The position numbers and the translations under genes are program-made. The notes below the pieces were generated by a model that saw only the letters and a program-made list of their open reading frames with translations, was not told the origin of the DNA and did no database searches. From Chloroflexota bacterium (lineage in GTDB: Bacteria > Chloroflexota > Limnocylindria > Limnocylindrales > CSP1-4), in the NCBI GenBank assembly GCA_046045415.1, contig JBJOLT010000015.1:5988-69987 (forward strand): 64,000 nucleotides of DNA, given 5' to 3'. Of the stretch, positions 21,167-34,796 are shown piece by piece; positions within the stretch are counted from its first letter, which is position 1; each line of letters starts with the position of its first letter.

Positions 21167-22380
21167 CCGGACGAGGATACCGGACGTCCCGGGCCGCTCA
21201 TCAGGCGATCGACGACCGCGAGGTAGCGCGGCGCCTCCGCCTCCCACGAGCGCTCCCGGGCGAGCGCGAGCGTCCGTCCGACCCGCGCCGCCCGCGCCTC
21301 GGGCTCGTCGACGAGCGAGAGGATCGCGGCGGCCATCGCGGCGGCGTCCCCCGGCTCGTACGCGAGGACGCTCCCGGGCGGGCAGGTCGCCTCGACCATC
21401 GGGAGCCGGGTCGCGACGACCGGCTTCCCCATCGCCGCGTACTCGAAGATCTTCGTGGAGAGGCTGACGTCCGTGAAGGCGTCGCGGCGGGTCGGGGCGA
21501 GCCCGACGTCGGCGGCCGCGAGGACGGCGGGGACCTCCTCGAGCGGGATCCGGCCGTGGAGGCGGACGCGGTCGGCGATCCCGCGCGCGGCGGCGAGGGC
21601 GGCGAGCGCGGGGGCGGTGTCGCCCCGGCCGTAGATGTCGAACACGAGCGCGAGCTCCGGGCGCCGCTCGCGGATGAGCGCGACCGCCTCGACGGCCACG
21701 TCGACCTCGTAGGTCGGCGTGAGGGCGCCCGCGTAGACGAGCCGGAGCGTCCCGTCGGCCATGAACGCGCGGACCGGATGGGCCGCGGGGTCGAAGCGGG
21801 CGAGGGCGGCGAGGTTCCGGACGACGCTCACCTTCCGCACCGGGACGCCGGCGGCGAGGAGCCGCGCCTCCAGCGCCTCGTTCACGACGAGGACCTCCGA
21901 TGCGATCGCGACGGCGAGCCGCTCCTGGAGGACGAGGAGCGCGTGGGCGACGGGGTTCGCGGCCGCCGGGAAGCGGCTCCGGAAGAACTCGGGCATCGCC
22001 TCGTGGAAGTCGACGAGGAGCGGGACCCCGGCGAGCCGGAGCGGGAGCGCCGCGGCCGCGAGCAGGTCGGGGATCGTGTGGACCTGGACGAGCCCGTACC
22101 GGCGGCGGCGGTGCGCCCGGACGAGCGCGATCGTCGAGCGGACGAGGAAGTCGAGGTACTCGGCGGCGTACCGGCCGATCCCCGCCCCCTGGTGGCGCTG
22201 GACCCCGAGCCGGGCGACCCGGACCCCGGCGATCGTCGCCTCCGACGGCTCCCCCGGCCGCCGGAGCGCGATGACGTCGACCTCGCGGCCGGCGGCGACG
22301 AGCGCCTCGGCCTCGCGCCTGACGCGCGGATCCTCGTCGTAGTACGAGTGGACGATCATGCAGACCGGCGGGCGGCTCAC
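21163..22380 (-). CDS. Glycosyltransferase, GT4-type (GT-B fold)
   Basis: 405 aa with a C-terminal [17 protein letters not shown] motif. GTG start at 22380 or ATG at 22359. Confidence 0.85.
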
Positions 22381-22440
22381 CCGCTGATGCTATCGGCTCG
22401 GCCGCCGCCACCGTGCGGGGGCGTGCTACCGTGCGCGCCG

Positions 22441-23334
22441 ATGGAGAGAAGCCCCGCGCCGGCCGCCGAGGACGGCGTCGCGCTCCGCTCGACCGCCGAC
22501 CGGCCGGGACCGCTCGGGCTGATCCGCGAGGCGATCGCCGAGACCGCGTCCCGCCGCCGGCTGATCCGCTACCTCGTCCAGGCGGACCTGAAGAAGAAGG
22601 GGTCGGACACCCTCCTCGGGAACGTCTGGTGGATCCTCGACCCGCTCCTCCAGATGGCGGTCTACGTCGTCCTCGTCACCGTCATCTTCCAGCGGACGGT
22701 CCCGGACTACCCGCTCTTCATCTTCGCGGCGATCCTCCCGTGGAAGTGGTACACGAGCAGCGTGAGCGACGCGATCGGCTCGGTCGTCGGCCAGGAGCGG
22801 CTCATCAAGCAGATCCACTTCCCGAAGCTGATCCTCCCGACCGCGACGACGGTCGCGGGGATCGCGAACTTCGGCTTCGGGCTCGTCGCCCTCGCCGGGC
22901 TCCTCGTCGTCTTCTACGCGGACCGCGCGTCGCCGTACCTCCTCCTCCTCCCGGCGATCGCCGCGGTCCAGCTCGTCCTGACGCTCGCGGTCGCGTACGT
23001 CGTCTCCGCCGTGAACGTCTTCTTCCGCGACGTCGCGAACGTGAGCCGGCACGCGCTCCGGATCTGGTTCTACCTCTCGCCCGGGCTCTACGGCGCCGAC
23101 GCGATCGAGGCGCTCAGCGAGACGAACCCGCTCGTCGCCGACCTCATGCGGCTCAACCCGTTCTACACGCTCTTCGAGTCGTACCGGGCGGTGATCTACG
23201 GGACGGCGGCCGGCGGGCCGACGAGCCCGCCGTGGGCGGAGCTCGCCGCGTGGGGCCTCGGTTCGGTCGTCCTCCTCGCGCTCGCGACGTTCGTCTTCAA
23301 GCGGCTCGAGCCCGCGTTCGCGAAGGTCCTCTGA
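22441..23334 (+). CDS. ABC-2 type polysaccharide/teichoic-acid exporter permease (Wzm/TagG-like)
   Basis: 297 aa with DLKKKGSDTLLGNVWWILDPLLQM and 6 predicted TM segments. It is the internal part of ORF 21556..23334. Confidence 0.85.
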   Translation: MERSPAPAAEDGVALRSTADRPGPLGLIREAIAETASRRRLIRYLVQADLKKKGSDTLLGNVWWILDPLLQMAVYVVLVTVIFQRTVPDYPLFIFAAILPWKWYTSSVSDAIGSVVGQERLIKQIHFPKLILPTATTVAGIANFGFGLVALAGLLVVFYADRASPYLLLLPAIAAVQLVLTLAVAYVVSAVNVFFRDVANVSRHALRIWFYLSPGLYGADAIEALSETNPLVADLMRLNPFYTLFESYRAVIYGTAAGGPTSPPWAELAAWGLGSVVLLALATFVFKRLEPAFAKVL

Positions 23335-24179
23335 TGGCCGACGAGCGACTCCATCCCGACGCGGTCGACGCGACCGCCCCGACGGTGATCGACGTCCATG
23401 GGCTCGGCGTCCGCTACAGCCTTCGGCTGACCCGTCGGAACACCGTCCGGCAGTCCTTCGCGAACCTGCTGAAGCCGCGCGAGGGCCCGACCGACTTCTG
23501 GGCGCTCCGCGACGTGACGTTCCGGCTGATGCGGGGCGAGTCGCTCGCGGTGATCGGGCCGAACGGCGCCGGGAAGTCGACGCTCCTCCAGGCGCTCGCC
23601 GGGATCATCACGCCGTCCGAGGGGGAGATCGCCGTCCGCGGCCAGATCTCGAGCCTCCTGACGCTCGGCGCCGGCTTCGACGCGGAGCTGAGCGGGCGCG
23701 ACAACATCATGCTCGCCGGCGCGTTCATGGGGATGGACCACCGGGAGATCGAGCGGCGGATCGACGGGATCATCGCGTTCGCGGACATCGGCCAGTTCAT
23801 CGACGCCCCGATCAAGACGTACTCGTCCGGGATGCGGGCGCGGCTCGGCTTCTCGATCGCGACCTCGGTCGACCCGGACATCCTCCTCCTCGACGAGGTC
23901 CTCGCGACCGGCGACCAGGTCTTCCGGGCGAAGTCGCAGGCGCGGGTCCTCGAGCTCGTCCGCGCGGCGAAGGGGATCGTCCTCGTGACCCACGACATGA
24001 ACTGGGTGACCGAGTTCTGCAACCGGGCGCTCCTCCTCGAGGGAGGCCGGATCGTCGCCGAGGGGGATCCGGCGGAGATCGTCGCGATCCACCGCGAGCA
24101 CTCCGAGCGGGTGAAGGCCGAGAAGCTCGCCGAGGCGGCGCGGCTCCTCGCGGGCGCGCGCGAGGGCGGCGGCCGCTAG
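23334..24179 (+). CDS. Polysaccharide/teichoic-acid exporter ATP-binding protein (Wzt/TagH-like, short form)
   Basis: 281 aa with Walker A GPNGAGKST, YSSGMRARLGF and LLLDEVLATGD. The ATG overlaps the permease stop (TGATG). There is no C-terminal carbohydrate-binding extension. Confidence 0.9.
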   Translation: MADERLHPDAVDATAPTVIDVHGLGVRYSLRLTRRNTVRQSFANLLKPREGPTDFWALRDVTFRLMRGESLAVIGPNGAGKSTLLQALAGIITPSEGEIAVRGQISSLLTLGAGFDAELSGRDNIMLAGAFMGMDHREIERRIDGIIAFADIGQFIDAPIKTYSSGMRARLGFSIATSVDPDILLLDEVLATGDQVFRAKSQARVLELVRAAKGIVLVTHDMNWVTEFCNRALLLEGGRIVAEGDPAEIVAIHREHSERVKAEKLAEAARLLAGAREGGGR

Positions 24180-25579
24180 GCCGGGACCGGCGGGCGCCCG
24201 CCCGCGGGCGGCGGGGCGTCAAGAGGCGGCGGCGCGTCGCGGGGCGGCGGGGGGACGAGCCGTGCCGCGAGCGCGAGGTACGGGACGACGGCGGTCTCCC
24301 AGTTGTACCGCTCCCTGGCGGCGGCGAGCGCGCGGGCCCGCATCGCCTCGCGCTCGTCCGACGGGGCCTCGAGGACCGCTCGGAGCGCCCGCCGCAGGTC
24401 GGCGACGTCGCCCGGGTCCGCGACCGCGCCGATCCGCTCCGCCTCGAGGATCGAGCGCATCACCTCGAGGTCGCGGCCGAGGACGATCGGGGTCCCCGCG
24501 GCGAGCGACTCCCAGAACTTGTTCGGCGTCGAGAGCCGCTGGTTCAGCGAGCCCGCGGGGACGGCGATGATCGTCGCGTCGGCGGAGGCGGTCCAGGCCG
24601 GGACGTCGTCGGGGTGCACCGGCGGGAGCGTCACGTGGCGGCCGGCGTAGCGCGGGTCGCGGTCGCGCTCGCGGAGCCGCTCCGCCCACGGCCCGAAGCC
24701 CAGCATGACGAGCGCCGCGTCCTCGAGGCCGAGGACCGCCTCGGCGGCCTCCTCGAGCCCGCGCTCTCGGCCGAGCCGCCCGAGCCAGAGGACGACGCGC
24801 CGCTCCGGCGGGAGTCCGGCCGCCGCGCGGATGAGGTCGGGCCGGCGCGCGGGCGGGTCCCATCGCGGCTGGCAGTTCGCGAGGACGGTCGGGCGGGTCC
24901 GGACCGGCCAGGTCGCCGCGAGGTGGTCGGCGAGCGGCTCGTTCACGGTCACGACCGCGTCGGCGCGCCGGACCCAGCCCCGCTCCCGTGCCGCGTAGGC
25001 GGCGACGAGCGGGCGCGGCAGCCCGGCGACGTTGTTCGACTCGAGGATCACGTCGATCACGTCGTAGACGACCCGGCCCTCGCGGCCCGCGCGGCGCGCG
25101 GCCGCGGCGAGCGGGAGCGCCACCCCGACGGTGAGGATCCCGCACGCGTGGTAGAGATCGGCCGGCGGCAGCTCCGCGCGGAGCGCCGCCCACCAGCCGC
25201 GGGCGTTGAGCGGCCAGGCGAGCGCCTTGGCGGCGACGTCGACGAGCCGTCGGATCGCCGCGAGCGGCCCGCGCCGACGGCCGCGCGAGCCGGTGGCGGC
25301 GCCGACCGCGTACCGGGCGAACGGGCCGCGCGGACGGTAGCGGCGGATGACGACCCCGGAGCGGCCGTCACGCTCCGTCTCGGGGACCTCGGGGCGCGCG
25401 GCCTCCGCGAGCGCGGCGATCTCCACCTCGAACCCGGCCCCCTCGAGACTCCGGGCGACGCGGAGGCCGCGCGAATAGGGAGCGGCGGCGTTCGCGACGA
25501 GGACGACGGCGCGCCGCACGGGCGGGGGCGCCGGCGGCGGGGCGACCGGGCGGGGGGCGCGACCGGCGGGGCCGCTCAC
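24176..25579 (-). CDS. Glycosyltransferase, tandem paralog A (GT-B fold)
   Basis: This is the C-terminal part of ORF 24176..26698. It contains VYDVIDVILESNN and SLNQRLSTPNKFWESLAAGTPIV. GTG at 25579 overlaps the paralog B stop (GTGA). Alternative GTG at 25519. Confidence 0.8.
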   Translation of the reverse strand: MSGPAGRAPRPVAPPPAPPPVRRAVVLVANAAAPYSRGLRVARSLEGAGFEVEIAALAEAARPEVPETERDGRSGVVIRRYRPRGPFARYAVGAATGSRGRRRGPLAAIRRLVDVAAKALAWPLNARGWWAALRAELPPADLYHACGILTVGVALPLAAAARRAGREGRVVYDVIDVILESNNVAGLPRPLVAAYAARERGWVRRADAVVTVNEPLADHLAATWPVRTRPTVLANCQPRWDPPARRPDLIRAAAGLPPERRVVLWLGRLGRERGLEEAAEAVLGLEDAALVMLGFGPWAERLRERDRDPRYAGRHVTLPPVHPDDVPAWTASADATIIAVPAGSLNQRLSTPNKFWESLAAGTPIVLGRDLEVMRSILEAERIGAVADPGDVADLRRALRAVLEAPSDEREAMRARALAAARERYNWETAVVPYLALAARLVPPPPRDAPPPLDAPPPAGGRPPVPA

Positions 25580-26973
25580 CACGGCCGTCCGGTCAGACGC
25601 CCGTACTCCTCGACGAGGAGTCCCATCTGGCGTTCCCACGAGTACGGGCCGTGCGCCGCGGCGAGGGCGCGGTCGCGGAGCGCGCGCCGCTCCGCCGGCG
25701 GCGCGTCGAGGATCGCCCGGATCGCCGCCGCGATCGCCGCGGGGTCGGTGGGGTCGACGAGCCGGCCGCAGCCGGTCTCCCGGACGATCGCCGCCATCCC
25801 GGGGAGGTCGCTCGCGACGACCGGGACCCCGGCCGCCATCGCCTCGAAGAGCTTGTTCGGCGTCGTCAGCCGGTGGTTGAGCGTCGAGGGCTGGATCGGC
25901 ATCGCGACGACGTCGGCCGCCGCGACCCAGCCGAGGAGCTCCGCCGGCGGGACCGCGGGGAGGAGCCGGACGCGCCCGGCCGCGGGGCCGGCCGGATCCG
26001 CCGCGATCCGCTCCAGCTCCCCGGCGAGCGGCCCGTACCCGAGGAGGACGAGCACCGCGTCCGGGACCCCGCCGATCGCGGCGACGAGCTGCTCGATCCC
26101 GCGATGCGGCGCCAGCCCGCCCTGGTAGAGGACGACGCGCGTCCCGGCGGCGAGTCCGAGCGCTTCGTGGAAGCGGCGCACGGGCGGGTCGCCGGGGTCG
26201 AAGCGGTACGAGCAGTTCATGACGATCGCCGGGAGCGGGACGCCGAAGCGGTCGGCCATCACCTCCGCGTACGGCCGGTTGACCGTCATCACCCGGTCCG
26301 CGCGGCGGGCCCAGCCGCGCTCGACCCGGCCGAGGAGCCGGCGCGCCGGACCGGGGAGACGCGCGAGGTTGTTCGCATCGACGTAGATGTCGCGCGCGTC
26401 GTAGACGACCCGGCCGCCGCGGGCGGCGGCGACCGCGAGCGCGACCGGGATCCCCATGTACGCCATCCCGTGGACGACGTCGGCCGGTGGGGCGACCGCC
26501 CGGGCGGCACGTGCCTGGGACCGGACGGTGAGCGCGATCGCGGCGATCCGGACGGCGGCCGCCACCGCGCGCCGGAGCCGGCCGCGGGACGCGACGCGGG
26601 ATGGCGCGGCGGCCGCCACGCCCGTCGCCGCGGCGTCCGTCGCCGCCGCGTCCGTCGTCGCCGCGCCCGTCGCCGCGGCGCGTCGCCCGGAGCGCCACCG
26701 GGCGACGGCTCGCCGGATCGGGGCCGGGAGCGGAAGGCCGTCCGCGGCGGAGACGGGAAGACGGACGATCCGGTAGCCGGCCGGATCGCGCGCCTCGGCG
26801 GGGAGGCCCGGCGCGAGCCGCGCGAGGACGGTCACCTCGTGGCCGCGGGCGGCGAGCGCGCTCGCGATCCGGAAGGTCCGTGAGTCGAACTCGCCGGTCG
26901 TCGGGAGGACGATCGTGCAGCGCTGCGGGACCGGCGCGTTCGAGCCGTCCGCCGCGGCGCGTCCCCCGCTCAC
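25576..26973 (-). CDS. Glycosyltransferase, tandem paralog B (GT-B fold) with a low-complexity insert
   Basis: Contains VYDARDIYVDANN and STLNHRLTTPNKLFEAMAAGVPVV. GTG at 26973 overlaps the paralog C stop (GTGA). Confidence 0.8.
   Translation of the reverse strand: MSGGRAAADGSNAPVPQRCTIVLPTTGEFDSRTFRIASALAARGHEVTVLARLAPGLPAEARDPAGYRIVRLPVSAADGLPLPAPIRRAVARWRSGRRAAATGAATTDAAATDAAATGVAAAAPSRVASRGRLRRAVAAAVRIAAIALTVRSQARAARAVAPPADVVHGMAYMGIPVALAVAAARGGRVVYDARDIYVDANNLARLPGPARRLLGRVERGWARRADRVMTVNRPYAEVMADRFGVPLPAIVMNCSYRFDPGDPPVRRFHEALGLAAGTRVVLYQGGLAPHRGIEQLVAAIGGVPDAVLVLLGYGPLAGELERIAADPAGPAAGRVRLLPAVPPAELLGWVAAADVVAMPIQPSTLNHRLTTPNKLFEAMAAGVPVVASDLPGMAAIVRETGCGRLVDPTDPAAIAAAIRAILDAPPAERRALRDRALAAAHGPYSWERQMGLLVEEYGRLTGRPW
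26624..26683. repeat. Imperfect 15-nt tandem repeat (4 units) inside glycosyltransferase paralog B
   Basis: Units are gtcgccgcggcgtcc, gtcgccgccgcgtcc, gtcgtcgccgcgccc and gtcgccgcggcgcgt. They encode the T-(G/D)-A-A-(A/T) pentapeptide tract AATGAATTDAAATDAAATGVAAAA. Confidence 0.6.
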
Positions 26974-28382
26974 GCCGTCGTCCGCACCGGCCCGGCCGCC
27001 GTGAGCTCCTCGTAGAGCCGGATCAGCCCGGCCGATTCGGTCTCCCAGTTCCAGCGACCGTGCGCGGCCGCGAGGCAGCGCGCCCGGAGCGTCGCCATCC
27101 CGTCCGGGGGCAGGGCGAGGAGCTCGGCGATCCCCCGGGCGAGCGCCGGGACCGACGCGGGGTCGCAGACGACCCCGAGCGGGCCCGCCGGGTCGCCGAG
27201 GACGATCCGCCGCATCTCGGGGAAGTCGCTCGCGACGACCGGGACGCCGGCCGCGAGGCACTCGAAGAGCTTGTTCGGCGTCGAGAGCGCGTGGTTGAGC
27301 GTCGAGGCCTGGATGGCGACGACACCGACGTCGGCGCCGGCGACCCACTCGACGAGCTCGTCGGGCGGGACGGCGTCGAGGACGTGGAGCCGACCGCCGT
27401 AGCGGGGGTCCGCCGCGGCGCGGTCGAGGTCCTCGCGCATCCGCCCGTAGCCGAGGTAGACCGCGTGGACCCGCTCGAGGCCCGGCTCGAGGATCGCGGC
27501 CGCGAGCTCCTCCAGCCCGCGGTGCGCCGAGAAGCCGCCGTGATAGAGCGCGATCGGCTCACCGGCGGGGACCCCGGCGGCGGTCCTCAGCAGGTCGCGC
27601 CGCTCGATCCGACGCTCGTGGCGGGCCGGCGTGTTGTGGAGGACGACGGTCCGCCGGGGCGCGTACCGGCGCCCGAGCTCCTCCGCGAGCGAGACGTTCA
27701 CGGTCACGAGCGCGTCGGCGGCCGCGACCCAGCGCGCCTCGAGGCGCCGGAACCGGTCGCGGATCCAGCGTGGCCGGTGGGCGTTCGTCCCCGACTCGAG
27801 GAAGATCTCGTGGCTGTCGTAGACGACGCGGCCGCCGTTCCGCGCCGCGGCCCGGAGCGCGGCCGGGAGACCCGTCAGGTCGTGCCCGTGGTAGACGTCG
27901 GCGAGCGGCGCCGCCCGGGCCGCGGCGTCCGCCCAGCCGAGGATCGCGAAGCGCCAGCGGACGAGCCAGTCGAGCAGCGTCCCGCCGGGCGGCTGCGGCC
28001 TCCCGCGCCCCCACGCGAGGTACCACGCGCCGCGGACGACGACCCACGGCATCGCGACGACGGCGAGGGCGGCCGCCGCGGCCGCGTTCAGGAGCCCGAT
28101 CGGGAAGCGGCCGAGCGCGTGCCGGAGCCGGAAGAGGAGCCACGAGCGGGCCCGCCACGGGTAGCGCGCCCAGATCCACCAGCGTCGCCACGCGTGCGGG
28201 ATCGGGACGCGGACGATCTCGACGCCGTCGCGCGTCTCGCGGTCACCCACCCGCGCCGCCGGGTCGGTCGGGCGGGCGAGGATCGTCACCTCGTGACCGG
28301 CCGCGGCGAGCGTCCCCGCCTCGCGGAGCACCCGCGCGTCGGTCCGGCAGTCGTTGAAGACGAACATGACGACGCGGCTCAT
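26970..28382 (-). CDS. Glycosyltransferase, tandem paralog C (GT-B fold)
   Basis: 470 aa. Starts MSRVVMFVFNDCRTDARV and contains VYDSHEIFLESG and STLNHALSTPNKLFECLAAGVPVV. ATG at 28382 overlaps the epimerase stop (ATGA). Confidence 0.85.
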   Translation of the reverse strand: MSRVVMFVFNDCRTDARVLREAGTLAAAGHEVTILARPTDPAARVGDRETRDGVEIVRVPIPHAWRRWWIWARYPWRARSWLLFRLRHALGRFPIGLLNAAAAAALAVVAMPWVVVRGAWYLAWGRGRPQPPGGTLLDWLVRWRFAILGWADAAARAAPLADVYHGHDLTGLPAALRAAARNGGRVVYDSHEIFLESGTNAHRPRWIRDRFRRLEARWVAAADALVTVNVSLAEELGRRYAPRRTVVLHNTPARHERRIERRDLLRTAAGVPAGEPIALYHGGFSAHRGLEELAAAILEPGLERVHAVYLGYGRMREDLDRAAADPRYGGRLHVLDAVPPDELVEWVAGADVGVVAIQASTLNHALSTPNKLFECLAAGVPVVASDFPEMRRIVLGDPAGPLGVVCDPASVPALARGIAELLALPPDGMATLRARCLAAAHGRWNWETESAGLIRLYEELTAAGPVRTTA

Positions 28383-29497
28383 CGGACGCCACCGGCCTCG
28401 AGCGCCGTGACGATCGCCTCGGCCGCTCCGGCCGGCGCGAGGGCGACGGTCGCGGCCCGCTCCCGTGCCGCGGCCGGGGCCGACGACGGCGGTGCGAGGC
28501 GATCGAGCGCCGCGACGGCGAGCGCCGCATCGCGGCCGACGAGGACCGTCAGCCCGCGCGGATCGGCAGCCGCCTCGACCCACTCGGTCGTCCCGCGGAG
28601 CACGAGGCACGGCACCGCGAGCCAGGCGGCCTCGCGCTGGACGCCGCCGGAATCCGTGAGGACGGCGGCGGCGTGGAGCTGCAGGGCGAGCGAGGTCCGG
28701 TAGCCCTGCGGCTCGAGGATCGCGACGCTCGCGGGGAGCTCGATCCCGGCGGCGTCGAGCGCCGCCCGGGTCCCCGGGTGGAGCGCGAGGACGACGGGCC
28801 GCTCCGGGGTGGCGACGGCGGCGAGGAGCGCGCTCCAGCCGCGGAGCGCCGCCTCGTCGCGGTTCTCGGCGCGGTGGACCGTCGCGAAGCAGTAGCCGCC
28901 CGGCCGGAGCGGGATCCCGAGGCGCTCCCCGATCGCGGCGACGGGCGCCGGGTCGCGGATCGCCGCGAGCGTCCGTGCCGCGAGATCCTGCATCAGGTCG
29001 CCGACGAGCGTGACGCCCTCCCCGATCCGTTCGGCCTCGAGGTTCGCGACGGCCGCCGGGGTCGGGGCGAAGCGCCAGCGGGCGAGGTGATCGGCGACGA
29101 TCCGGTTCCGCTCCTCCGGCATCGCCCGGTCGAAGCTCCGGAGCCCCGCCTCGACGTGCGCGAGCGGGATCCCCGCCCGGGTCGCGGCGAGCGCCCCGGC
29201 GAGCGTCGAGTTCGTGTCGCCGTAGACGAGGACCGCGTCCGGGCGCCACTCGGCGAGGAGCGGGTCGAGCGCGTCGAGCATCCGGGCGACCTGCTCGCCG
29301 GCCGTCCCGCCGCCGATCCCGAGGGAGCGGTCGGGCTTCGGGAGGCCGAGCTCGGCGAAGAAGGCGCCGGCCATCGCCTCGTCGTAGTGCTGGCCGGTGT
29401 CGACGAAGCGCTCGTCATGGCGTGCGCGGAGGACCGGGCCGAGCGCCGCCGCCTTGATCAACTGGGGGCGCGTCCCGAGGACGCTGACGATCCGCAC
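28379..29497 (-). CDS. UDP-N-acetylglucosamine (or UDP-GlcNAc3NAcA) 2-epimerase, WecB/WbpI-like
   Basis: 372 aa with VLGTRPQLIKAA, YGDTNSTLAGALAA, HVEAGLRS and TDSGGVQREA. Confidence 0.9.
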   Translation of the reverse strand: MRIVSVLGTRPQLIKAAALGPVLRARHDERFVDTGQHYDEAMAGAFFAELGLPKPDRSLGIGGGTAGEQVARMLDALDPLLAEWRPDAVLVYGDTNSTLAGALAATRAGIPLAHVEAGLRSFDRAMPEERNRIVADHLARWRFAPTPAAVANLEAERIGEGVTLVGDLMQDLAARTLAAIRDPAPVAAIGERLGIPLRPGGYCFATVHRAENRDEAALRGWSALLAAVATPERPVVLALHPGTRAALDAAGIELPASVAILEPQGYRTSLALQLHAAAVLTDSGGVQREAAWLAVPCLVLRGTTEWVEAAADPRGLTVLVGRDAALAVAALDRLAPPSSAPAAARERAATVALAPAGAAEAIVTALEAGGVR

Positions 29498-29525
29498 GCG
29501 GAGAGCCTACCCGCCGCCGGGCGGG

Positions 29526-30956
29526 TCAGCGGCGCGCGGCGGGACGGCGGACGGCGGACGGGACCCCGACGCCGTGGTAGGCGACCCCGCGCGGGAGGGC
29601 GAGCGACCGAAGGCTGTTCCGGCCGTCGTAGAGGACCTGCAGGTGCGGGAAGCAGCCGAAGTCGAGCGTCGCGAAGCGGGGATCCGCGGTCTGGGTGACG
29701 ATCGCGAGCGCGTCGCTCCGCTCGCCCCAGCGGTACGGGGCGGCGCCGAGGGCGGCCGTCTCCGCCTCGTCGAGGAGCGGGTCGTAGGCGGCGACGCGGG
29801 CGCCGTGGAAGGTGAGGCGCTCGATCAGCGGGACCGCCCGGCTGTAGGCGAGCTCCTTCACCCCGTGGCGGTAGGTGAGCCCGAGGACGAGGATCGTCGT
29901 CCCGTCGAGCCCGCCGAGCGCCCGCTGGAGCGCCCTGACCGCGACGCCGACCTGCCCGTCGTTCGTCTTCCGCGACGTCGCGACGAGCTCCATCTCCGGG
30001 GCGCGACTGAGGAGGAAGTGCGGATAGACCGGGATGCAGTGGCCCCCGACGCCGATCCCGGGCTGGTGGATGTGCGAGTAGGGCTGGCTGTTCGCCGCGT
30101 CGATCACCTCCTGGATGTCGACGCCGACCCGGTCGGCATAGCGCGCGAACTCGTTCGCGAGCGCGATGTTCACGTCGCGGTAGGTGGTGTCGGCGAGCTT
30201 GCTGAACTCGGCCGCCTCGGCCGACGACATCGCGACGATCTCCGCGTCGAGGACGGACGCGTAGAAGCGGGCGGCGAGGTCGGTCGCCTCGGGCGTCAGC
30301 CCCCCGACGAGCTTCGGATAGGCGGCGAGGTTCCGGAGCGCCGCCCCGCTGTAGAGCCGCTCCGGCGAGAAGGCGACGTGGAGGTCGCGCTCGATCGACG
30401 TGCCGCTCGCCGCCTCGAGCTTCGGCGCGAAGCGGCCGCGCGTGTCCCCGACCGGGAGCGTGGTCTCGAAGATGACGAGCGAGCCCGGATGGACCCCGGG
30501 CGCGATCGACGCGACCGCGGCGTCCATGTAGCGGTAGTCCGGCTGGTGGGCGTCGTCGAGCATGACCGGGACGATGAGGACGACGACGTCGGACTCGCGC
30601 GCCGCGGCGGCGGCATCGGTCGTCGCGCGGAGCCGGCCGGCGGCGTGGGCGCCCGCGACGAGCTCGGCGAGCCCCGGCTCGTCGTCGACGTGCGACTCGC
30701 CCCGATTGATCGAGTCGACGACCTCGCGTCGGACGTCGACGGCGACGACCTCCCAGCCGTGCGAGGCGTACTGGGCGCAGAGCGGGAGCCCCATCTTGCC
30801 GGCGCCGATCACCGCGACCCGGCCGGCGGTCCCCTCCTCGCCGGTCCACGGGGAGACCCGGCGCGTCTCGCCGTGCGGGCACGGCGCCGCCGGGAGCTCG
30901 ATCGAGCCGCCGAGGAGGCTCGGCCCCGTCGCGCTCGGGCGGGCGACGATCCTCAT
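29526..30956 (-). CDS. Nucleotide-sugar dehydrogenase (copy 2, WbpA-like UDP-GlcNAc 6-dehydrogenase candidate)
   Basis: 476 aa with VAVIGAGKMGLPLC and [18 protein letters not shown] at 30956 overlaps the upstream stop (ATGA). About 45 aa of unusual N-terminal lead precede the Rossmann fold. Confidence 0.8.
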   Translation of the reverse strand: MRIVARPSATGPSLLGGSIELPAAPCPHGETRRVSPWTGEEGTAGRVAVIGAGKMGLPLCAQYASHGWEVVAVDVRREVVDSINRGESHVDDEPGLAELVAGAHAAGRLRATTDAAAAARESDVVVLIVPVMLDDAHQPDYRYMDAAVASIAPGVHPGSLVIFETTLPVGDTRGRFAPKLEAASGTSIERDLHVAFSPERLYSGAALRNLAAYPKLVGGLTPEATDLAARFYASVLDAEIVAMSSAEAAEFSKLADTTYRDVNIALANEFARYADRVGVDIQEVIDAANSQPYSHIHQPGIGVGGHCIPVYPHFLLSRAPEMELVATSRKTNDGQVGVAVRALQRALGGLDGTTILVLGLTYRHGVKELAYSRAVPLIERLTFHGARVAAYDPLLDEAETAALGAAPYRWGERSDALAIVTQTADPRFATLDFGCFPHLQVLYDGRNSLRSLALPRGVAYHGVGVPSAVRRPAARR

Positions 30957-32005
30957 CGGGCCGGGAGCCGCGCGGCGAGGGCGGAGAGGTCGGACGGGCG
31001 CCCGGCGTCGGCGGATTCGAGGAGTGCGGTGGCGATCGCGACCGCCCAGAGGCCGTCCTCGACGTCGACTGCGGGGCGGCCGCCGCCCCGGACCGTCGCG
31101 AGGAAGGCGTCGATCTCCGCGACGAGCGGCTCCCGGTTCTCGACCGGGATCTCCGCGACGTCGCCGGCGAACGTCGTCGCGTAGCCCCCGAGCGTCTGCG
31201 GGTTCGCGACGTCGGCCTTCGTGAAGGTGAGGCGCTGCGTCAGGTAGTCGAGCTCGAACATCCCCTCCTCGCCGATGACGGTCAGCTGGCGTCGCTTCGC
31301 GGGCGTCAGCCAGTTGACGTCGATCATCCCGGTCGCGCCCGACGGGAAGTGGAGGAGGCCGAAGAGGAGGTCCTCGTGCGTCGCGTGGATCCGCTGCGCA
31401 TGCTCGGCGTAGGCGCGGGAGGGGCGCTCGCCGGCGATCCAGCAGAGCATGTCGGCATCGTGCGTGCCGAGGTCCACCGTCACCCCGACGTCGCGGATCC
31501 GCGCGGGGAACGGGCCGGCGCGCCGGCTCGCGATCGCGTAGACCGTCGAGAGGGCGCCCCCCCGGAGGAGCTCGCCGAGCCGGAGGACGGCGGGGTTGAA
31601 GCGCTCGACGTGGCCGACCTGGACCGGGACACCCGCGGCGCGGGAGGCCTCGACGATCCGGAGCCCCTCCTCCACCGACGCGGCGAGCGGCTTCTCGACG
31701 AGGAGCGCGACGCCCCGCTCGATCGCGGCGAGCGCGAGCGGGAGGTGGGCGGTCGTCGGCGCCGCGACGACGACCGCGTCGAGCTCCGCCTCGGCGATCA
31801 TCGCGAGCGGCTCGGAGAAGCCCTGTGCGCCCGATCGCGCCACCGCCTCCTCGACCGCGGCGGCCGCGGGGTCCGCGACCGCGACGAGCCGGCAGCCGGG
31901 CTGCGCGGCGAGGACGCGGAGATGGTTCCGTCCCATCGAGCCGAGTCCCGCGAGGCCGACGCGGACCTCGCGCTCGCCGACCGGCGTCCAGCGCGCGGGG
32001 CTCAT
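30953..32005 (-). CDS. Gfo/Idh/MocA-family oxidoreductase (WbpB-like)
   Basis: 350 aa with VGLAGLGSMGRNHL and EKPLA. ATG at 32005. Confidence 0.85.
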   Translation of the reverse strand: MSPARWTPVGEREVRVGLAGLGSMGRNHLRVLAAQPGCRLVAVADPAAAAVEEAVARSGAQGFSEPLAMIAEAELDAVVVAAPTTAHLPLALAAIERGVALLVEKPLAASVEEGLRIVEASRAAGVPVQVGHVERFNPAVLRLGELLRGGALSTVYAIASRRAGPFPARIRDVGVTVDLGTHDADMLCWIAGERPSRAYAEHAQRIHATHEDLLFGLLHFPSGATGMIDVNWLTPAKRRQLTVIGEEGMFELDYLTQRLTFTKADVANPQTLGGYATTFAGDVAEIPVENREPLVAEIDAFLATVRGGGRPAVDVEDGLWAVAIATALLESADAGRPSDLSALAARLPAR

Positions 32006-32015
32006 CGGGCGGGGC

Positions 32016-33116
32016 TCATCGGGGGGCGGCGTCCCCGTGCCGCGCGACGGCGGCCCGGACGGCGCCGATCACCGTCGCCTGCTCGTCGGCGGTCAGGTTG
32101 GGGTGCATCGGGAGGGCGATCGTCCGCGCCGCCGCGGCGTCGGTCACCGGGAGGTCGGCGTGGAGGCCGCGCTCCATCACGTACTCCTGCCGGTGGACCG
32201 GGAGCGGGTAGTAGACGTCGGCGCCGACCCCGTTCTCCCGGAGATCGGCGAGGATCGCGTCGCGCGCGCCGCCGACCTCGACGGTGTACTGGTGATAGAC
32301 GTGCGTCCGTCCCTCGGGCGTGACCGGGAGCCGGACCGGGAGATCGGCGAACGCCTCGTCGTACCGACCGGCGATCGCCTGGCGGCGTGCGGTGTTCCGC
32401 TCGAGCTTGTCGAGCTGGACGAGCCCGATCGCCGCGTTCAGGTTCGTCATCCGGAAGTTGTAGCCGAGGATCTCGAACGCGTAGCGGGTCCGCATCCCCT
32501 GGTTGCGGTAGAGCCGGAGCCAGTCGGCGAGCCGGTCGTCGTTCGTCGTCACCATCCCGCCCTCGGCGGTCGTCATGTTCTTCGTCGCGTAGAAGCTGAA
32601 GGCGCCGTGGCCGAACGAGCCGGCGCGGCGGCCGCGGTAGGTCGCCCCGTGCGCCTGGCAGGCGTCCTCCACGACCGCGATCCCGTGGCGGTCGGCGATC
32701 GCGCAGATCATGTCCATGTCGGCGACGAGGCCGAAGAGATGGACCGGGACGATCGCGCGGGTCCGCGGCGTGATCGCCTTCTCGATCAGCTTCGCGTCGA
32801 TGACGTAGGTGTCCGGCTCGATGTCGACGAAGACCGGGGTGGCGCCGGTGAAGAGGATCGAGTTCGCCGTCGCCGCGAACGTGTGCGCGACGGTGATCGC
32901 CTCGTCGCCGGGGCCGAGCCCGAGGCCGGCGAAGATCGCCATCTCGGCGAGCGTCCCGTTGCCGAACGCGATCGCGTGGCGGACGCCGCACATCGCGGCG
33001 AACCGCTCCTCGAACTCCGCGACCTGCTTCCCCTGGGCGATCATCCCGCTCCGGAGGACCTCGGTCACCGCCTCGATCTCCTCGGGACCGATGTCCGGCT
33101 TCGCGATCGGGATCAT
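32016..33116 (-). CDS. DegT/DnrJ/EryC1/StrS-family PLP aminotransferase (WbpE-like)
   Basis: 366 aa starting MIPIAKPDIGPEEIEAV. Contains FSFYATKNMTTAEGG (PLP Lys) and YHQYTV. ATG at 33116 overlaps the acetyltransferase stop (ATGA). Confidence 0.9.
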   Translation of the reverse strand: MIPIAKPDIGPEEIEAVTEVLRSGMIAQGKQVAEFEERFAAMCGVRHAIAFGNGTLAEMAIFAGLGLGPGDEAITVAHTFAATANSILFTGATPVFVDIEPDTYVIDAKLIEKAITPRTRAIVPVHLFGLVADMDMICAIADRHGIAVVEDACQAHGATYRGRRAGSFGHGAFSFYATKNMTTAEGGMVTTNDDRLADWLRLYRNQGMRTRYAFEILGYNFRMTNLNAAIGLVQLDKLERNTARRQAIAGRYDEAFADLPVRLPVTPEGRTHVYHQYTVEVGGARDAILADLRENGVGADVYYPLPVHRQEYVMERGLHADLPVTDAAAARTIALPMHPNLTADEQATVIGAVRAAVARHGDAAPR

Positions 33117-33787
33117 GCGCTCGCTCCATCGGCTGGGGCGTCGGCCCGCTCGGCGAGCGCGTCGGCCCTGGGGTCGTACCGGTAGGCGCGCCCGCATCGG
33201 GCGCAGTGGAGACTCGGATCGTGAGCGTACAACTCGGGCTTCCCCGGCGCCGGGTTCCCGTGCTCGTCCTTCAGCCGGTCGCCGCACGCGCAGACCCAGC
33301 CGATCCGGCGGGCCGGGTTGCCGGCGACGAGCGCGTGGTCGGGGACGGTCCTCGTGACGACCGCCCCGGCCCCGACGGTCGCGAAGCGCCCGACGTCCAC
33401 CCCCGCGACGACGACGGCGCCCGCACCGATCGAGCAGCCGTAGCGGAGCGTGATCGGGCTGACGACCCAGTCGGCGGCGCGGGCGAGCTCGCCGGTCGCG
33501 GTGATCGCGCGGGGGAACCGGTCGTTCGTGAGGATCGCGTTCGGGCCGATGAAGACGCCGTCCTCGACCGTGACGCCGTGGTAGACGAGCGCGGCGTTCT
33601 GGATCTTCACCCGGTCGCCGATGACGACGTCCTCGTCGATGAACGCATCGCGGCCCACGATGCAGCCCGCGCCGATCGTCGCGCGGTTCCGCACCTGGGC
33701 GCGGTGCCAGACGCTCGATCCGGCGCCGATCGCGACGTCCGCCTCGATGTCGGCCGACGGGTGGACGCGCGCAGAGGGGTCGATCAC
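33113..33787 (-). CDS. Left-handed beta-helix (hexapeptide) N-acetyltransferase (WbpD-like) with a C-terminal Cys-rich tail
   Basis: 224 aa with hexapeptide repeats (IGAGSSV, IGAGCIV, IGDRVKI, IGAGAVV). The tail is WVCACGDRL...HCARCG. GTG at 33787. Confidence 0.85.
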   Translation of the reverse strand: MIDPSARVHPSADIEADVAIGAGSSVWHRAQVRNRATIGAGCIVGRDAFIDEDVVIGDRVKIQNAALVYHGVTVEDGVFIGPNAILTNDRFPRAITATGELARAADWVVSPITLRYGCSIGAGAVVVAGVDVGRFATVGAGAVVTRTVPDHALVAGNPARRIGWVCACGDRLKDEHGNPAPGKPELYAHDPSLHCARCGRAYRYDPRADALAERADAPADGASA

Positions 33788-33863
33788 GGGTGGGAAGGGC
33801 TCCTTCGACGGCGCGCGACGGGGGCTCGGCGAGCGCGGCGCGAGCGCGACCGAGGCGTGGCGG

Positions 33864-33869
33864 AGTATA
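33864..33869 (-). promoter_or_regulatory. Candidate -10 box (TATACT) for the minus-strand wbp/glycosyltransferase operon
   Basis: This is the only AT-rich hexamer in the 178-nt spacer upstream of the acetyltransferase gene. It fits TAnnnT. No convincing -35. Confidence 0.3.
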
Positions 33870-33965
33870 CCGGAGCGGCCCTTCGGGACCCGGCGGGCGA
33901 CGGGCCGATCCCGTCGGTCCGACGCGCTCGGGCAGGTGGGCGCGGGCCGGTCGCCCTCCCCGGCC

Positions 33966-34796
33966 TCATCGCCGGCGGACCGCCGCCGCGACGGCCGCAC
34001 CCTGGCGGAGGAGCGCGCGGACGAGGCGCTCGACGAGCCGGCCCGCTCCGGTCGCACGGAGCTCGTCGCGGCGGAGGGCGAGGACGAGGACGAGCGCCTC
34101 CCAGATGATCCGGCGCGACATCTTCGAGCGGCCCACCCGACGGTCGCGGAAGGTGATCGGGACCTCCCGGATCCGTGCGCGGCCCCGCGCGGCCCGGTAG
34201 GTCATCTCGATCTGGAAGACGTAGCCGCCGGCATGGATCCCGCCGAGGTCGATCGCCGCGAGCGTCGCGGCGCGCCACGCCTTGAAGCCGCCGGTGAGGT
34301 CGCCCGGGCCGAGCCGGAGGACGAGCTTGGCGAAGAGGCTCCCGCCGCGGGAGACGATCCGACGACCGATCCCCCAGTCCTCGACCCGCCCGCCGCGGCA
34401 GTACCGAGAGCCGATGACGAGGTCGGCCTCGCCGCGCTCGAGCGGCCCGAGGAGCGCCGGCAGCGCGTCAGGATCGTGGGACCAGTCGGCATCCATCTGG
34501 ACGACGGTCCCGGCACCGCCGGCGAGGGCGACCCCGAAGCCGTCGACGTAGGCGCGCCCGAGTCCCTCCTTCCCGGCTCGATGGCGGACCCTGATCCGCG
34601 GGTCGGCGGCGGCGAGCTCGTCGGCGAGCCGGCCGGTCCCGTCCGGCGAGGCGTCGTCGACGACGAGGAGCGTCGCCTCGGGGAGCGCCTCGAGGATGGC
34701 GCGCGCGATCGGGGCGAGGTTCTCCGCCTCGTCGTACGTCGGGAGGACCACCCACGTCCCGGCGGGACGGGGCTCCGCGGTCGTTCGGCGCGCCAC
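33966..34796 (-). CDS. Polyprenol-phosphate mannose/glycose synthase (GT2, Ppm1/DPM1-like)
   Basis: 276 aa with VVLPTYDEAENL, VVDDASPDGT, VQMDADWSHDP and GGFKAW. Confidence 0.85.
   Translation of the reverse strand: MARRTTAEPRPAGTWVVLPTYDEAENLAPIARAILEALPEATLLVVDDASPDGTGRLADELAAADPRIRVRHRAGKEGLGRAYVDGFGVALAGGAGTVVQMDADWSHDPDALPALLGPLERGEADLVIGSRYCRGGRVEDWGIGRRIVSRGGSLFAKLVLRLGPGDLTGGFKAWRAATLAAIDLGGIHAGGYVFQIEMTYRAARGRARIREVPITFRDRRVGRSKMSRRIIWEALVLVLALRRDELRATGAGRLVERLVRALLRQGAAVAAAVRRR

What the first reader, a model, noticed from the sequence alone, without database searches (positions are those of the whole stretch)
28379..33787. Complete WbpA/B/E/D/I-like gene set for UDP-2,3-diacetamido-2,3-dideoxy-mannuronic acid
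Five contiguous genes encode a UDP-sugar 6-dehydrogenase, a Gfo/Idh/MocA oxidoreductase, a DegT-type aminotransferase, a hexapeptide N-acetyltransferase and a 2-epimerase. This is exactly the enzyme complement of the five-step UDP-ManNAc3NAcA pathway established for the Pseudomonas aeruginosa O5 B-band antigen and for Bordetella. Finding it as a coupled operon in a high-GC Gram-positive-type genome points to a rare acidic diacetamido sugar in the envelope.
Basis: partly seen in the sequence, partly recalled or inferred. Interest (0 to 1): 0.55.

Follow-up and report, generated by a model that had tools for sequence, protein, structure and literature searches.

The report
Diacetamido-uronic sugar operon in a Chloroflexota genome
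The five genes are real and most likely make the rare acidic sugar UDP-ManNAc3NAcA for an exported surface polymer, but the genome is an uncultured Chloroflexota bacterium rather than a Gram-positive actinobacterium, and the pathway is already known from many phyla, so this is a solid but ordinary annotation.

Summary
Observation confirmed to the nucleotide. Five minus-strand genes (33787→28379) encode a hexapeptide N-acetyltransferase, a DegT aminotransferase, a Gfo/Idh/MocA oxidoreductase, a UDP-sugar 6-dehydrogenase and a non-hydrolysing 2-epimerase.

Interpretation partly supported.
- **Specific evidence for the product:** the epimerase is 53% identical to the solved Thermus UDP-GlcNAc3NAcA 2-epimerase. 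It carries all three of that enzyme's substrate determinants (A16/Y92/W306; E. coli WecB has M/H/R). The acetyltransferase's best solved match is WlbB (45% identity).
- **Family level only:** the aminotransferase, oxidoreductase and dehydrogenase cannot be assigned to WbpE/WbpB/WbpA. The oxidoreductase is nearest an archaeal UDP-GlcNAc 3-dehydrogenase model, so the order of steps is open.
- **Wrong host:** GuaA is 100% identical to a protein of an NCBI "Chloroflexota bacterium" MAG. The closest named relatives are Ca. Limnocylindrales.
- **Larger unit:** the five genes begin an eight-gene operon with three GT4 glycosyltransferases. Flanking it are an ABC-2 exporter, a fourth GT4, a second dehydrogenase and a GT2. 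The block is syntenic in at least 12 related MAGs.

Five-gene Wbp sets were already reported in Thermus, Bacteroidetes and Proteobacteria. Streptomyces teichuronic acids built from this sugar are published. Verdict: new member of a known kind, low-to-moderate interest.

The parts
33113..33787 (-). WlbB/WbpD-like left-handed beta-helix N-acetyltransferase (224 aa, GTG start). It has a lineage-specific C-terminal CxC...CxxC tail.
   Evidence: Pfam Hexapep. Best PDB match is WlbB 3mqg at 132 bits, 45% identity over 161 residues. The next matches are 4mzu, 7s43 and QdtC 3fs8; 4mzu and QdtC are 3-amino-sugar N-acetyltransferases from my own knowledge. The Cys4 tail is conserved in Chloroflexota orthologues. 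An AAGGAG motif lies about 14 nt upstream of the GTG.
32016..33116 (-). DegT-family PLP sugar aminotransferase (366 aa), the proposed WbpE-equivalent C3 transaminase.
   Evidence: Pfam PF01041 6.4e-128. The PLP lysine K179 is invariant. PDB ranking is not discriminating: perosamine synthetase 357 bits, ArnB 324, WbpE 315, DesV 308. The start overlaps the AcT stop in an ATGA.
30953..32005 (-). Gfo/Idh/MocA NAD-dependent oxidoreductase (350 aa), the proposed UDP-sugar 3-dehydrogenase.
   Evidence: Pfam. The best specific model is NCBIfam NF040723, archaeal UDP-GlcNAc 3-dehydrogenase, at 261.6 bits (cut-off 450); the next is inositol dehydrogenase at 136. PDB: WlbA of B. pertussis 113 bits, GnnA 106, Thermotoga 3ezy 133 (organism and enzyme names from my own knowledge). 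EKP motif and His182 are invariant.
29526..30956 (-). UDP-N-acetylhexosamine 6-dehydrogenase (DH1, 476 aa) with a conserved N-terminal extension of about 45 aa. Proposed WbpA-equivalent.
   Evidence: TIGR03026 340 bits; UDP-ManNAc dehydrogenase models 262 and 229 bits; TviB 127 bits, all below cut-offs. PDB 4r16 222 bits, Cap5O 203 bits. The start overlaps the OxR stop in an ATGA. Extension conserved.
28379..29497 (-). WbpI/WlbD-type non-hydrolysing UDP-2,3-diacetamido-2,3-dideoxy-glucuronate 2-epimerase (372 aa).
   Evidence: Best PDB match is the Thermus enzyme 8sxv at 280 bits and 53% identity, against 134 bits for E. coli WecB. The specificity residues A16/Y92/W306 correspond to Ala18/Tyr96/Trp307 of the Thermus enzyme; WecB has M16/H93/R313.
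24176..28382 (-). Three GT4 glycosyltransferases continuing the operon: GT4a 26970-28382, GT4b 25576-26973, GT4c 24176-25519.
   Evidence: Pfam Glyco_trans_1_4, Glycos_transf_1 and Glyco_transf_4. ATGA overlap at Epi/GT4a and GTGA overlap at GT4a/GT4b. The same three GT4 genes follow the epimerase in L083 and other relatives.
22441..24179 (+). ABC-2 type exporter, convergent with the operon: permease 22441-23334 and ATPase 23385-24179.
   Evidence: ATPase: galactan Wzt/RfbE model 192.6 bits and TagH models 177-187 bits, below cut-offs. Permease: multi-helix hydrophobic sequence and full-length but weak ABC2_membrane match, 23.9 bits against a gathering score of 26.9. The pair is conserved in L083.
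19865..22359 (-). Fourth GT4 glycosyltransferase (21163-22359) coupled to a second NDP-sugar 6-dehydrogenase DH2 (19865-21166).
   Evidence: Pfam and NCBIfam. DH2 scores ManNAc dehydrogenase models 244 and 215 bits, TviB 190 bits. DH2 is 34-35% identical to DH1. The same pair sits at the same place in L083.
33966..34796 (-). GT2 polyprenyl-phosphate glycosyltransferase-like gene upstream of the operon.
   Evidence: Pfam Glycos_transf_2 1.7e-25. Weak AglJ and PpgS matches. Conserved upstream at 71-75% identity in relatives.
33788..33965 (-). 178-nt intergenic region ahead of the acetyltransferase gene. It is the likely promoter and ribosome-binding region.
   Evidence: Sequence shows a TATACT motif and an AAGGAG motif. 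The consensus promoter scan found nothing in this 74% GC DNA, so this is inference only.

Best explanation
The five genes are the precursor module of a surface-glycan locus in an uncultured Chloroflexota bacterium close to Ca. Limnocylindrales.

Starting from UDP-GlcNAc, the proposed steps are:
1. An NAD-dependent 6-dehydrogenase (DH1) makes the uronic acid.
2. A Gfo/Idh/MocA dehydrogenase oxidises C3.
3. A PLP aminotransferase aminates C3.
4. A WlbB-like acetyltransferase N-acetylates the amine, giving UDP-GlcNAc3NAcA.
5. A WbpI-type 2-epimerase converts part of that pool to UDP-ManNAc3NAcA.

The three GT4 enzymes translated from the same operon, plus a fourth nearby, would assemble an acidic, teichuronic-acid-like or O-antigen-like chain on a lipid carrier at the cytoplasmic face. 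The adjacent ABC-2 transporter would export it.

**Shown here:** gene models, families, operon coupling, synteny, the epimerase specificity residues, and host taxonomy.

**Inferred:** substrates of DH1, the oxidoreductase and the aminotransferase; whether C6 oxidation precedes C3 oxidation; and the polymer and its destination.
For: - Families and intact catalytic motifs.
- The epimerase is 53% identical to the biochemically and structurally characterised UDP-GlcNAc3NAcA 2-epimerase. It has Ala/Tyr/Trp where UDP-GlcNAc epimerases have Met-Leu/His-Gln/Arg. Ala and Trp are kept in all 12 close Chloroflexota orthologues, and Tyr in 11 of them (one has Phe). Trp replaces the Arg that binds the 3-OH. 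Ala and Tyr accommodate the C6 carboxylate. This places 3-N-acetylation and 6-oxidation before epimerisation.
- The acetyltransferase's top solved relative is WlbB.
- The oxidoreductase's only specific relative is a UDP-GlcNAc 3-dehydrogenase model.
- No 4,6-dehydratase is present in the locus.
- ATGA/GTGA overlaps link AcT-AT, OxR-DH1, Epi-GT4a and GT4a-GT4b.
- In relatives with at least 50% oxidoreductase identity, 13 of 15 loci have the oxidoreductase/aminotransferase/acetyltransferase trio and 10 of 15 have all five genes within 7 kb. The rest are cut by contig ends.
- The exporter, the GT4 genes and the second dehydrogenase are also conserved.
Against: - No biochemistry was done.
- The aminotransferase scores higher against C4 aminotransferases (perosamine synthetase, ArnB) than against WbpE.
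- The oxidoreductase is no closer to WlbA or GnnA than to inositol dehydrogenases. It is not WbpB-type, and it is below the cut-off of the archaeal model.
- DH1 resembles UDP-ManNAc dehydrogenases more than the UDP-GlcNAc dehydrogenase TviB. No WbpA reference sequence could be obtained for comparison.
- A second dehydrogenase in the locus leaves open which enzyme does the WbpA step.
- No initiating phosphoglycosyltransferase or polymer ligase is in the window.
Confidence: 0.75

Rival explanations
1. Same enzymes and same end product, but in an 'archaeal-type' order. The 3-dehydrogenase, aminotransferase and acetyltransferase first act on UDP-GlcNAc to give UDP-GlcNAc3NAc. DH1 then oxidises C6, and the epimerase acts last.
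For: The oxidoreductase's closest curated family is the archaeal UDP-N-acetylglucosamine 3-dehydrogenase, at 261.6 bits against 136 for the next family. It is not WbpB-type. DH1 is not TviB-like. Haloarchaeal loci L038 and L048 carry related aminotransferase, oxidoreductase and DH1-like genes, and L048 also a related epimerase gene.
Against: The score is far below the model's cut-off of 450. Nothing in the sequence shows which substrate the oxidoreductase prefers. From my own recollection, Siu et al. 2015 (J Bacteriol) reported that the Methanococcus homologues follow the Pseudomonas order; that paper could not be retrieved here.
Confidence: 0.25
2. Two separate pathways share one operon. A WecB/WecC-like epimerase and dehydrogenase pair makes UDP-ManNAcA. 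The oxidoreductase/aminotransferase/acetyltransferase trio makes a neutral UDP-GlcNAc3NAc.
For: DH1's best specific matches are UDP-ManNAc dehydrogenases: archaeal model 262 bits, WecC model 229, PDB 4r16 222, Cap5O 203. DH1 and the epimerase are adjacent, as wecB and wecC are in E. coli.
Against: The epimerase lacks the Arg, His/Gln and Met/Leu residues that UDP-GlcNAc epimerases use. It has the Trp/Tyr/Ala set of the di-N-acetyl uronate enzyme. It scores 280 bits against that enzyme and 134 against WecB. DH1 is translationally coupled to the oxidoreductase, not to the epimerase. From my own recollection, WbpA was itself first taken for a UDP-ManNAc dehydrogenase on the basis of homology.
Confidence: 0.08
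3. The amination is at C4, or the product is some other amino sugar, so the locus makes a different diacetamido or amino-uronic sugar.
For: The aminotransferase's top solved relatives are C4 aminotransferases: perosamine synthetase 357 bits and ArnB 324 bits, against WbpE 315.
Against: No 4,6-dehydratase or other C4 oxidase is in the locus. The keto group must come from the Gfo/Idh/MocA enzyme, and the nucleotide-sugar members of that family that I know of are C3 dehydrogenases. The acetyltransferase groups with 3-amino-sugar acetyltransferases. The epimerase has Trp in place of the 3-OH-binding Arg. DegT-family sequence similarity is known not to track regiochemistry; the C3 enzymes DesV (308 bits) and QdtB (295 bits) score nearly as high.
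Confidence: 0.05

Closest known systems
P. aeruginosa PAO1 WbpA/B/E/D/I and Bordetella WlbA-D pathway to UDP-ManNAc3NAcA
   Same: Same five enzyme classes and the same predicted product. The acetyltransferase is 45% identical to WlbB of the Bordetella pathway. The epimerase scores best against the solved Thermus enzyme, which is itself 55% identical to WbpI.
   Different: The oxidoreductase is not WbpB-type and only weakly resembles Bordetella WlbA (89-113 bits). The aminotransferase is not specifically WbpE-like. The gene order here is D-E-B-A-I. The host is a Chloroflexota bacterium, a phylum grouped with monoderm lineages lacking LPS, so the product is not expected to go into an LPS O-antigen.
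Thermus thermophilus HB27 five-ORF set (WP_011172736-39, WP_148187554), with the solved 2-epimerase 8SXV
   Same: Contiguous five-gene set outside the Proteobacteria. The epimerase is 53% identical and shares the Ala18/Tyr96/Trp307 determinants.
   Different: The Thermus 3-dehydrogenase is of the WbpB type, 49% identical to WbpB. That type is not detectably close to the window's oxidoreductase.
Streptomyces griseus and S. antibioticus utr teichuronic-acid clusters (bioRxiv 10.1101/2025.04.24.650519)
   Same: Wbp-like precursor genes (dehydrogenase, aminotransferase, oxidase, N-acetyltransferase, 2-epimerase) clustered with glycosyltransferases. They make a wall-linked acidic polymer of ManNAc3NAcA and/or GlcNAc3NAcA.
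   Different: That polymer is built on wall teichoic acid by TarS/TarM-like enzymes. Here the glycosyltransferases are GT4 enzymes next to an ABC-2 exporter, in another phylum. No sequence comparison with the utr genes was possible.
Methanococcus maripaludis MMP0350-0353/0357 and the archaeal UDP-GlcNAc 3-dehydrogenase family (NCBIfam NF040723)
   Same: The oxidoreductase's best curated family match, full length, 261.6 bits. Haloarchaeal loci carry related genes; the L048 epimerase has the A/Y/W residues.
   Different: The score is below the family cut-off of 450. The archaeal sugars go into N-glycans. The gene numbers and biochemistry are from my own recollection, because those papers are not in the held library.
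E. coli WecB/WecC (UDP-ManNAcA for enterobacterial common antigen)
   Same: Adjacent 2-epimerase and 6-dehydrogenase genes. DH1 is 32% identical to WecC.
   Different: WecB has M16/H93/R313 where the window's epimerase has A16/Y92/W306. WecB scores only 134 bits against the window's epimerase.

Membership tests
Wbp/Wlb UDP-ManNAc3NAcA pathway | Final enzyme is a non-hydrolysing 2-epimerase specific for UDP-GlcNAc3NAcA (WbpI/WlbD). Structural determinants are Ala18, Tyr96 and Trp307 in Thermus numbering. | tested here: met
   280 bits and 53% identity to 8sxv. A16/Y92/W306 are present. The E. coli WecB control has M/H/R. In the 12 close orthologues Ala and Trp are always kept, and Tyr in 11 (one Phe). 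The determinants are taken from PMC10622841.
Wbp/Wlb UDP-ManNAc3NAcA pathway | WbpD/WlbB-type left-handed beta-helix 3-N-acetyltransferase. | tested here: met
   The best of 66 PDB matches is WlbB 3mqg, at 132 bits and 45% identity. The next matches are 4mzu, 7s43 and QdtC; 4mzu and QdtC are 3-amino-sugar N-acetyltransferases from my own knowledge.
Wbp/Wlb UDP-ManNAc3NAcA pathway | WbpB/WlbA-type NAD-dependent UDP-GlcNAcA 3-dehydrogenase. | tested here: inconclusive
   It is a Gfo/Idh/MocA enzyme with the EKP motif and catalytic His. B. pertussis WlbA scores 89-113 bits, similar to inositol dehydrogenases. The P. aeruginosa and Thermus type is absent from the top 60. The nearest curated model is archaeal UDP-GlcNAc 3-dehydrogenase at 261.6 bits, below the cut-off of 450.
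Wbp/Wlb UDP-ManNAc3NAcA pathway | WbpE-type PLP aminotransferase acting at C3 of the UDP-3-keto sugar. | tested here: inconclusive
   DegT family at 6.4e-128, with the lysine intact. WbpE scores 251-315 bits but ranks below perosamine synthetase and ArnB.
Wbp/Wlb UDP-ManNAc3NAcA pathway | WbpA-type UDP-GlcNAc 6-dehydrogenase. | tested here: inconclusive
   A nucleotide-sugar dehydrogenase (TIGR03026, 340 bits) with the catalytic Cys. The substrate cannot be assigned: ManNAc dehydrogenase models score 229-262 bits, TviB 127, all below cut-offs. No WbpA reference sequence was available. A second dehydrogenase is present in the locus.
Wbp/Wlb UDP-ManNAc3NAcA pathway | The five enzymes convert UDP-GlcNAc to UDP-ManNAc3NAcA, and the sugar is present in the envelope. 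| not testable with these tools
   Needs enzyme assays and glycan chemistry. The organism is known only as a MAG.
WecB/WecC UDP-ManNAcA pathway | An epimerase that binds the 3-OH of UDP-GlcNAc through a conserved Arg, with His/Gln and Met/Leu near C6. | tested here: not met
   The window has W306, Y92 and A16 at those positions. E. coli WecB has R313, H93 and M16.
ABC-transporter-dependent glycan export (Wzm/Wzt, TagG/TagH type) | Adjacent ABC-2 permease and ATPase genes within a glycosyltransferase locus. | tested here: met
   The ATPase matches Wzt/RfbE (192.6 bits) and TagH (177-187 bits) models, below their equivalog cut-offs. The permease aligns over the full ABC2_membrane profile at 23.9 bits. 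The pair is conserved with the locus in L083. This is a family-level assignment only.

The most novel reading that the evidence does not exclude
The Limnocylindrales-type set may be a distinct evolutionary lineage of the diacetamido-uronate pathway.

Three features set it apart:
- An archaeal-type 3-dehydrogenase.
- A 6-dehydrogenase with an invariant 45-aa N-terminal extension.
- An acetyltransferase with a conserved Cys4 zinc-ribbon-like tail.

These could reflect a different reaction order or a physically coupled enzyme assembly. The locus would also specify the first predicted envelope polymer, an acidic teichuronic-acid-like glycan, for an abundant class of Chloroflexota for which I found no envelope glycan chemistry.
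Probability: 0.2. Interest if true: 0.4.

Novelty: new member of a known kind. Interest (0 to 1): 0.25.

Why it matters
If the prediction holds, members of Ca. Limnocylindria carry a conserved locus for an exported polymer rich in 2,3-diacetamido-uronic acids. This class is widespread and known mostly from MAGs (282 genomes, about 69% GC). I found no paper linking this sugar to Chloroflexi.

That would give a concrete, testable handle on the envelope chemistry of a phylum usually grouped with monoderm lineages that lack LPS. It could also point to a phage or toxin receptor, as shown for the equivalent Streptomyces polymer.

For pathway enzymology, the locus offers a third kind of 3-dehydrogenase to compare with the two WlbA families described by Thoden and Holden (recalled from memory; those papers were not held).

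It does not change what is known about the pathway itself. Five-gene sets had already been reported across phyla.

Tried and rejected
1. **Exact-sequence look-ups.** Neither the window's oxidoreductase nor the 100%-identical GuaA (P0121) is on record, so no source accession was obtained.
2. **Papers not held.** The primary papers on WlbA, WlbB, the Psychrobacter enzymes and Westman 2008 could not be read. I therefore could not check carboxylate-binding residues in the oxidoreductase, aminotransferase or acetyltransferase. The Methanococcus papers are also not in the library.
3. **Profile searches against the PDB.** Profiles of the oxidoreductase and aminotransferase orthologues did not sharpen the assignment.
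4. **Dehydrogenase homologue search.** This returned only unnamed or generically named close relatives, with no WbpA reference.
5. **Promoter and terminator scan.** It found nothing in this 74% GC DNA. Rfam found only a tRNA.
6. **My own frame error.** My first permease coordinates (22413-23334) were off-frame. The 'ABCperm' matches are compositional artefacts. The corrected gene is 22441-23334.
7. **Distant oxidoreductase relatives.** Loci at 25-36% oxidoreductase identity (L014-L080) are mostly generic Gfo/Idh/MocA genes with no linked aminotransferase or acetyltransferase. They say nothing about function.
8. **AlphaFold model of DH1.** Mean pLDDT was 72.3 from a shallow alignment. Residues 31-45 of the extension are confidently modelled (block mean pLDDT 93-96), with short strands next to the Rossmann fold. 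Residues 1-21 are unmodelled. This gave no functional insight.
9. **Actinobacterial origin.** Considered and rejected.

Full report
**1. Observation**

The window is about 74% GC throughout. A third-position GC screen and the ORF list give five consecutive minus-strand genes exactly between 28379 and 33787. In transcription order they are:
- Hexapeptide acetyltransferase (AcT), 33113-33787, GTG start, 224 aa.
- DegT aminotransferase (AT), 32016-33116, 366 aa.
- Gfo/Idh/MocA oxidoreductase (OxR), 30953-32005, 350 aa.
- UDP-sugar 6-dehydrogenase (DH1), 29526-30956, 476 aa.
- Non-hydrolysing 2-epimerase (Epi), 28379-29497, 372 aa.

Pfam E-values run from 4.7e-19 to 6.4e-128. Gene calls made by others on 97%-identical metagenome contigs give the same lengths for the first four genes, 224/366/350/476 aa. 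AcT/AT and OxR/DH1 overlap in ATGA. AT/OxR and DH1/Epi are separated by 10 and 28 nt.

**2. The unit is larger than reported**

The epimerase stop overlaps the start of a GT4 glycosyltransferase in an ATGA. That gene's stop overlaps the next GT4 start in a GTGA, and a third GT4 follows. The operon is therefore eight genes, 33787→24176.

Other parts of the locus:
- An ABC-2 permease (22441-23334) and a Wzt/TagH-like ATPase (23385-24179) converge on the operon's end.
- A fourth GT4 coupled to a second nucleotide-sugar dehydrogenase, DH2, diverges from the permease gene (19865-22359).
- A GT2 polyprenyl-phosphate glycosyltransferase-like gene lies 178 nt upstream.

The flanks are housekeeping genes: mreB, mreC, radC, UPF0182 and guaA on one side; a PPIase, mazG and ham1 on the other. 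No initiating phosphoglycosyltransferase or wall ligase is in the window.

**3. Host**

The evidence says otherwise:
- The 12 closest oxidoreductase loci (69-77% identity) are all Chloroflexota MAGs, named Ca. Limnocylindrales, Chloroflexia or Chloroflexota.
- Named DH1 relatives are Ca. Limnocylindrales.
- The housekeeping GMP synthase is 100% identical to a protein of an NCBI 'Chloroflexota bacterium' MAG (locus tag RL338). It is 89% identical to Ca. Limnocylindrales proteins.

Ca. Limnocylindria (also called Ellin6529) is a class with a mean GC of about 69%, known mostly from MAGs, in a phylum grouped with monoderm lineages lacking LPS.

The AcT-AT-OxR-DH1-Epi block keeps its order in at least 12 related loci. 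The GT4 genes, the exporter and DH2 are often retained too. A Ca. Limnocylindrus genome has all five genes in another order (L013).

**4. What each enzyme is**

*Epimerase.* This gives the strongest result.
- Its best solved relative is the Thermus thermophilus UDP-2,3-diacetamido-2,3-dideoxy-glucuronate 2-epimerase, at 280 bits and 53% identity. The Methanocaldococcus UDP-GlcNAc epimerase scores 215 bits and E. coli WecB 134.
- Thoden et al. 2023 showed how the Thermus enzyme accommodates its substrate. Trp307 replaces the Arg that binds the 3-OH. Ala18 replaces Leu/Met. Tyr96 replaces His/Gln near C6.
- The window enzyme has A16, Y92 and W306 at these positions. E. coli WecB, fetched as a control, has M16, H93 and R313.
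- In the 12 close Chloroflexota orthologues, Ala and Trp are always kept and Tyr is kept in 11 (one has Phe). The more distant L013 has Leu and Phe.

*Acetyltransferase.* Its best solved relative is WlbB, at 132 bits and 45% identity. Other 3-amino-sugar N-acetyltransferases follow.

*Aminotransferase.* It is a typical DegT enzyme, but similarity does not resolve regiochemistry. A profile of orthologues scores 357 bits against perosamine synthetase, 324 against ArnB, 315 against WbpE, 308 against DesV and 295 against QdtB.

*Oxidoreductase.* It has the EKP motif and the catalytic His, but it is not WbpB-like.
- B. pertussis and C. violaceum WlbA score 110-113 bits and GnnA 106. These are no better than inositol dehydrogenases.
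- P. aeruginosa WbpB and Thermus WlbA are not among the 60 best matches.
- Its only specific affinity is the NCBIfam model for archaeal UDP-GlcNAc 3-dehydrogenase. That match is full length at 261.6 bits, with a cut-off of 450 and the next family at 136.

*Dehydrogenase DH1.* It has the catalytic Cys. It resembles UDP-ManNAc dehydrogenases (262, 229, 222 and 203 bits) more than TviB (127 bits), and is below every equivalog cut-off. I could not obtain a WbpA sequence for comparison. From memory, WbpA was itself first annotated as a ManNAc dehydrogenase by homology.

**5. Mechanism**

The most likely reading is a Wbp-type route from UDP-GlcNAc to UDP-GlcNAc3NAcA and on to UDP-ManNAc3NAcA. The epimerase determinants place C3 N-acetylation and C6 oxidation before epimerisation. 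That argues against a WecB/WecC-like side pathway. The absence of any 4,6-dehydratase, the Gfo/Idh/MocA oxidase and the WlbB-like acetyltransferase all argue for C3 chemistry.

Whether C6 or C3 is oxidised first is not resolved. The archaeal-type oxidoreductase keeps the '3-first' order open.

The coupled GT4 genes and the ABC-2 exporter imply cytoplasmic assembly of an acidic glycan on a lipid carrier, followed by ABC-dependent export. The anchor and final location are unknown.

**6. Comparison with what is known**

The pathway was defined in P. aeruginosa and Bordetella. Five-gene sets were already noted in Thermus, Bacteroidetes, Epsilonproteobacteria and Photorhabdus. The sugars are known in a Bacillus stearothermophilus wall polysaccharide and in archaeal N-glycans.

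In true high-GC Gram-positives the matter is settled experimentally. Streptomyces teichuronic acids are polymers of ManNAc3NAcA and/or GlcNAc3NAcA, made by Wbp-like utr genes.

No paper in the library links the sugar to Chloroflexi. The finding is therefore a new member of a known kind. Its modest novelty lies in the host lineage and in three lineage-specific traits:
- The archaeal-type oxidoreductase.
- A conserved 45-aa N-terminal extension on DH1.
- A Cys4 tail on the acetyltransferase.

**7. Verdict**

- Observation: confirmed.
- Interpretation: partly supported. The product call is reasonable at about 0.75. The host call is wrong. 'Exact complement' holds at family level only for three of the five enzymes.
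- Interest: 0.25.

Noticed in passing
window 30821-30956 (-), the first ~45 codons of DH1: The 6-dehydrogenase carries an N-terminal extension of about 45 aa before the Rossmann GxGxxG motif. R6, P7, L15, G16, G17, S18, L21, P22, C26, H28, W37, G42, T43 and G45 are invariant across 26 relatives. The extension is present in all Chloroflexota orthologues examined, and alignments to E. coli WecC and P. horikoshii 4r16 begin only after it. AlphaFold models residues 31-45 confidently, with short strands next to the Rossmann fold, and leaves residues 1-21 unmodelled.
   Followed up: partly
window 33113-33290 (-), C-terminus of the acetyltransferase: The WlbB-like acetyltransferase has an extra C-terminal tail with a CxC...CxxC pattern (GWVCACG...HCARCG), which looks like a zinc ribbon. 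The four Cys are conserved in Chloroflexota orthologues, including Ca. Limnocylindrus and a Dehalococcoidia MAG. They are absent from WlbB.
   Followed up: partly
window 32003-32032 (-), aminotransferase/oxidoreductase junction: A 14-nt tandem duplication (CCCGATGAGCCCCG twice) separates the aminotransferase stop from the oxidoreductase start by 10 nt. The same gap is seen in the 97%-identical contigs L081 and L082. In the more distant relative L083 the two genes overlap by 4 nt.
   Followed up: partly
window 19865-21166 (-): A second nucleotide-sugar 6-dehydrogenase (DH2, 433 aa, 34-35% identical to DH1) is coupled to a fourth GT4. It scores better than DH1 against the UDP-GlcNAc dehydrogenase TviB model (190 against 127 bits). 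Either it or DH1 could do the WbpA step, or the polymer contains a second uronic acid.
   Followed up: partly
window 34881-36668 (-): A 595-aa protein whose only recognisable part is a FlgD Ig-like domain (residues 423-490) sits between mreC and the GT2 gene. It lies in the same place in L081 and L082. This may be a surface protein. Its function is unknown.
   Followed up: no
L005, L006, L007 (aminotransferase genes) compared with the window: In three relatives the acetyltransferase (77-81% identity) and the oxidoreductase (71-72%) are close to the window's, but the aminotransferase is only 53% identical. This suggests the aminotransferase gene was replaced within the conserved block in part of the clade.
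   Followed up: no
L048 (Halococcus salifodinae) and L038 (Natronomonas gomsonensis): These haloarchaeal loci carry related aminotransferase, oxidoreductase and DH1-like genes at 33-45% identity. L048 also has a related epimerase gene that keeps the A/Y/W determinants. This hints at a shared archaeal and Chloroflexota version of the pathway.
   Followed up: partly
window 14721-14794 (-): A single tRNA gene is the only Rfam match in the window.
   Followed up: no
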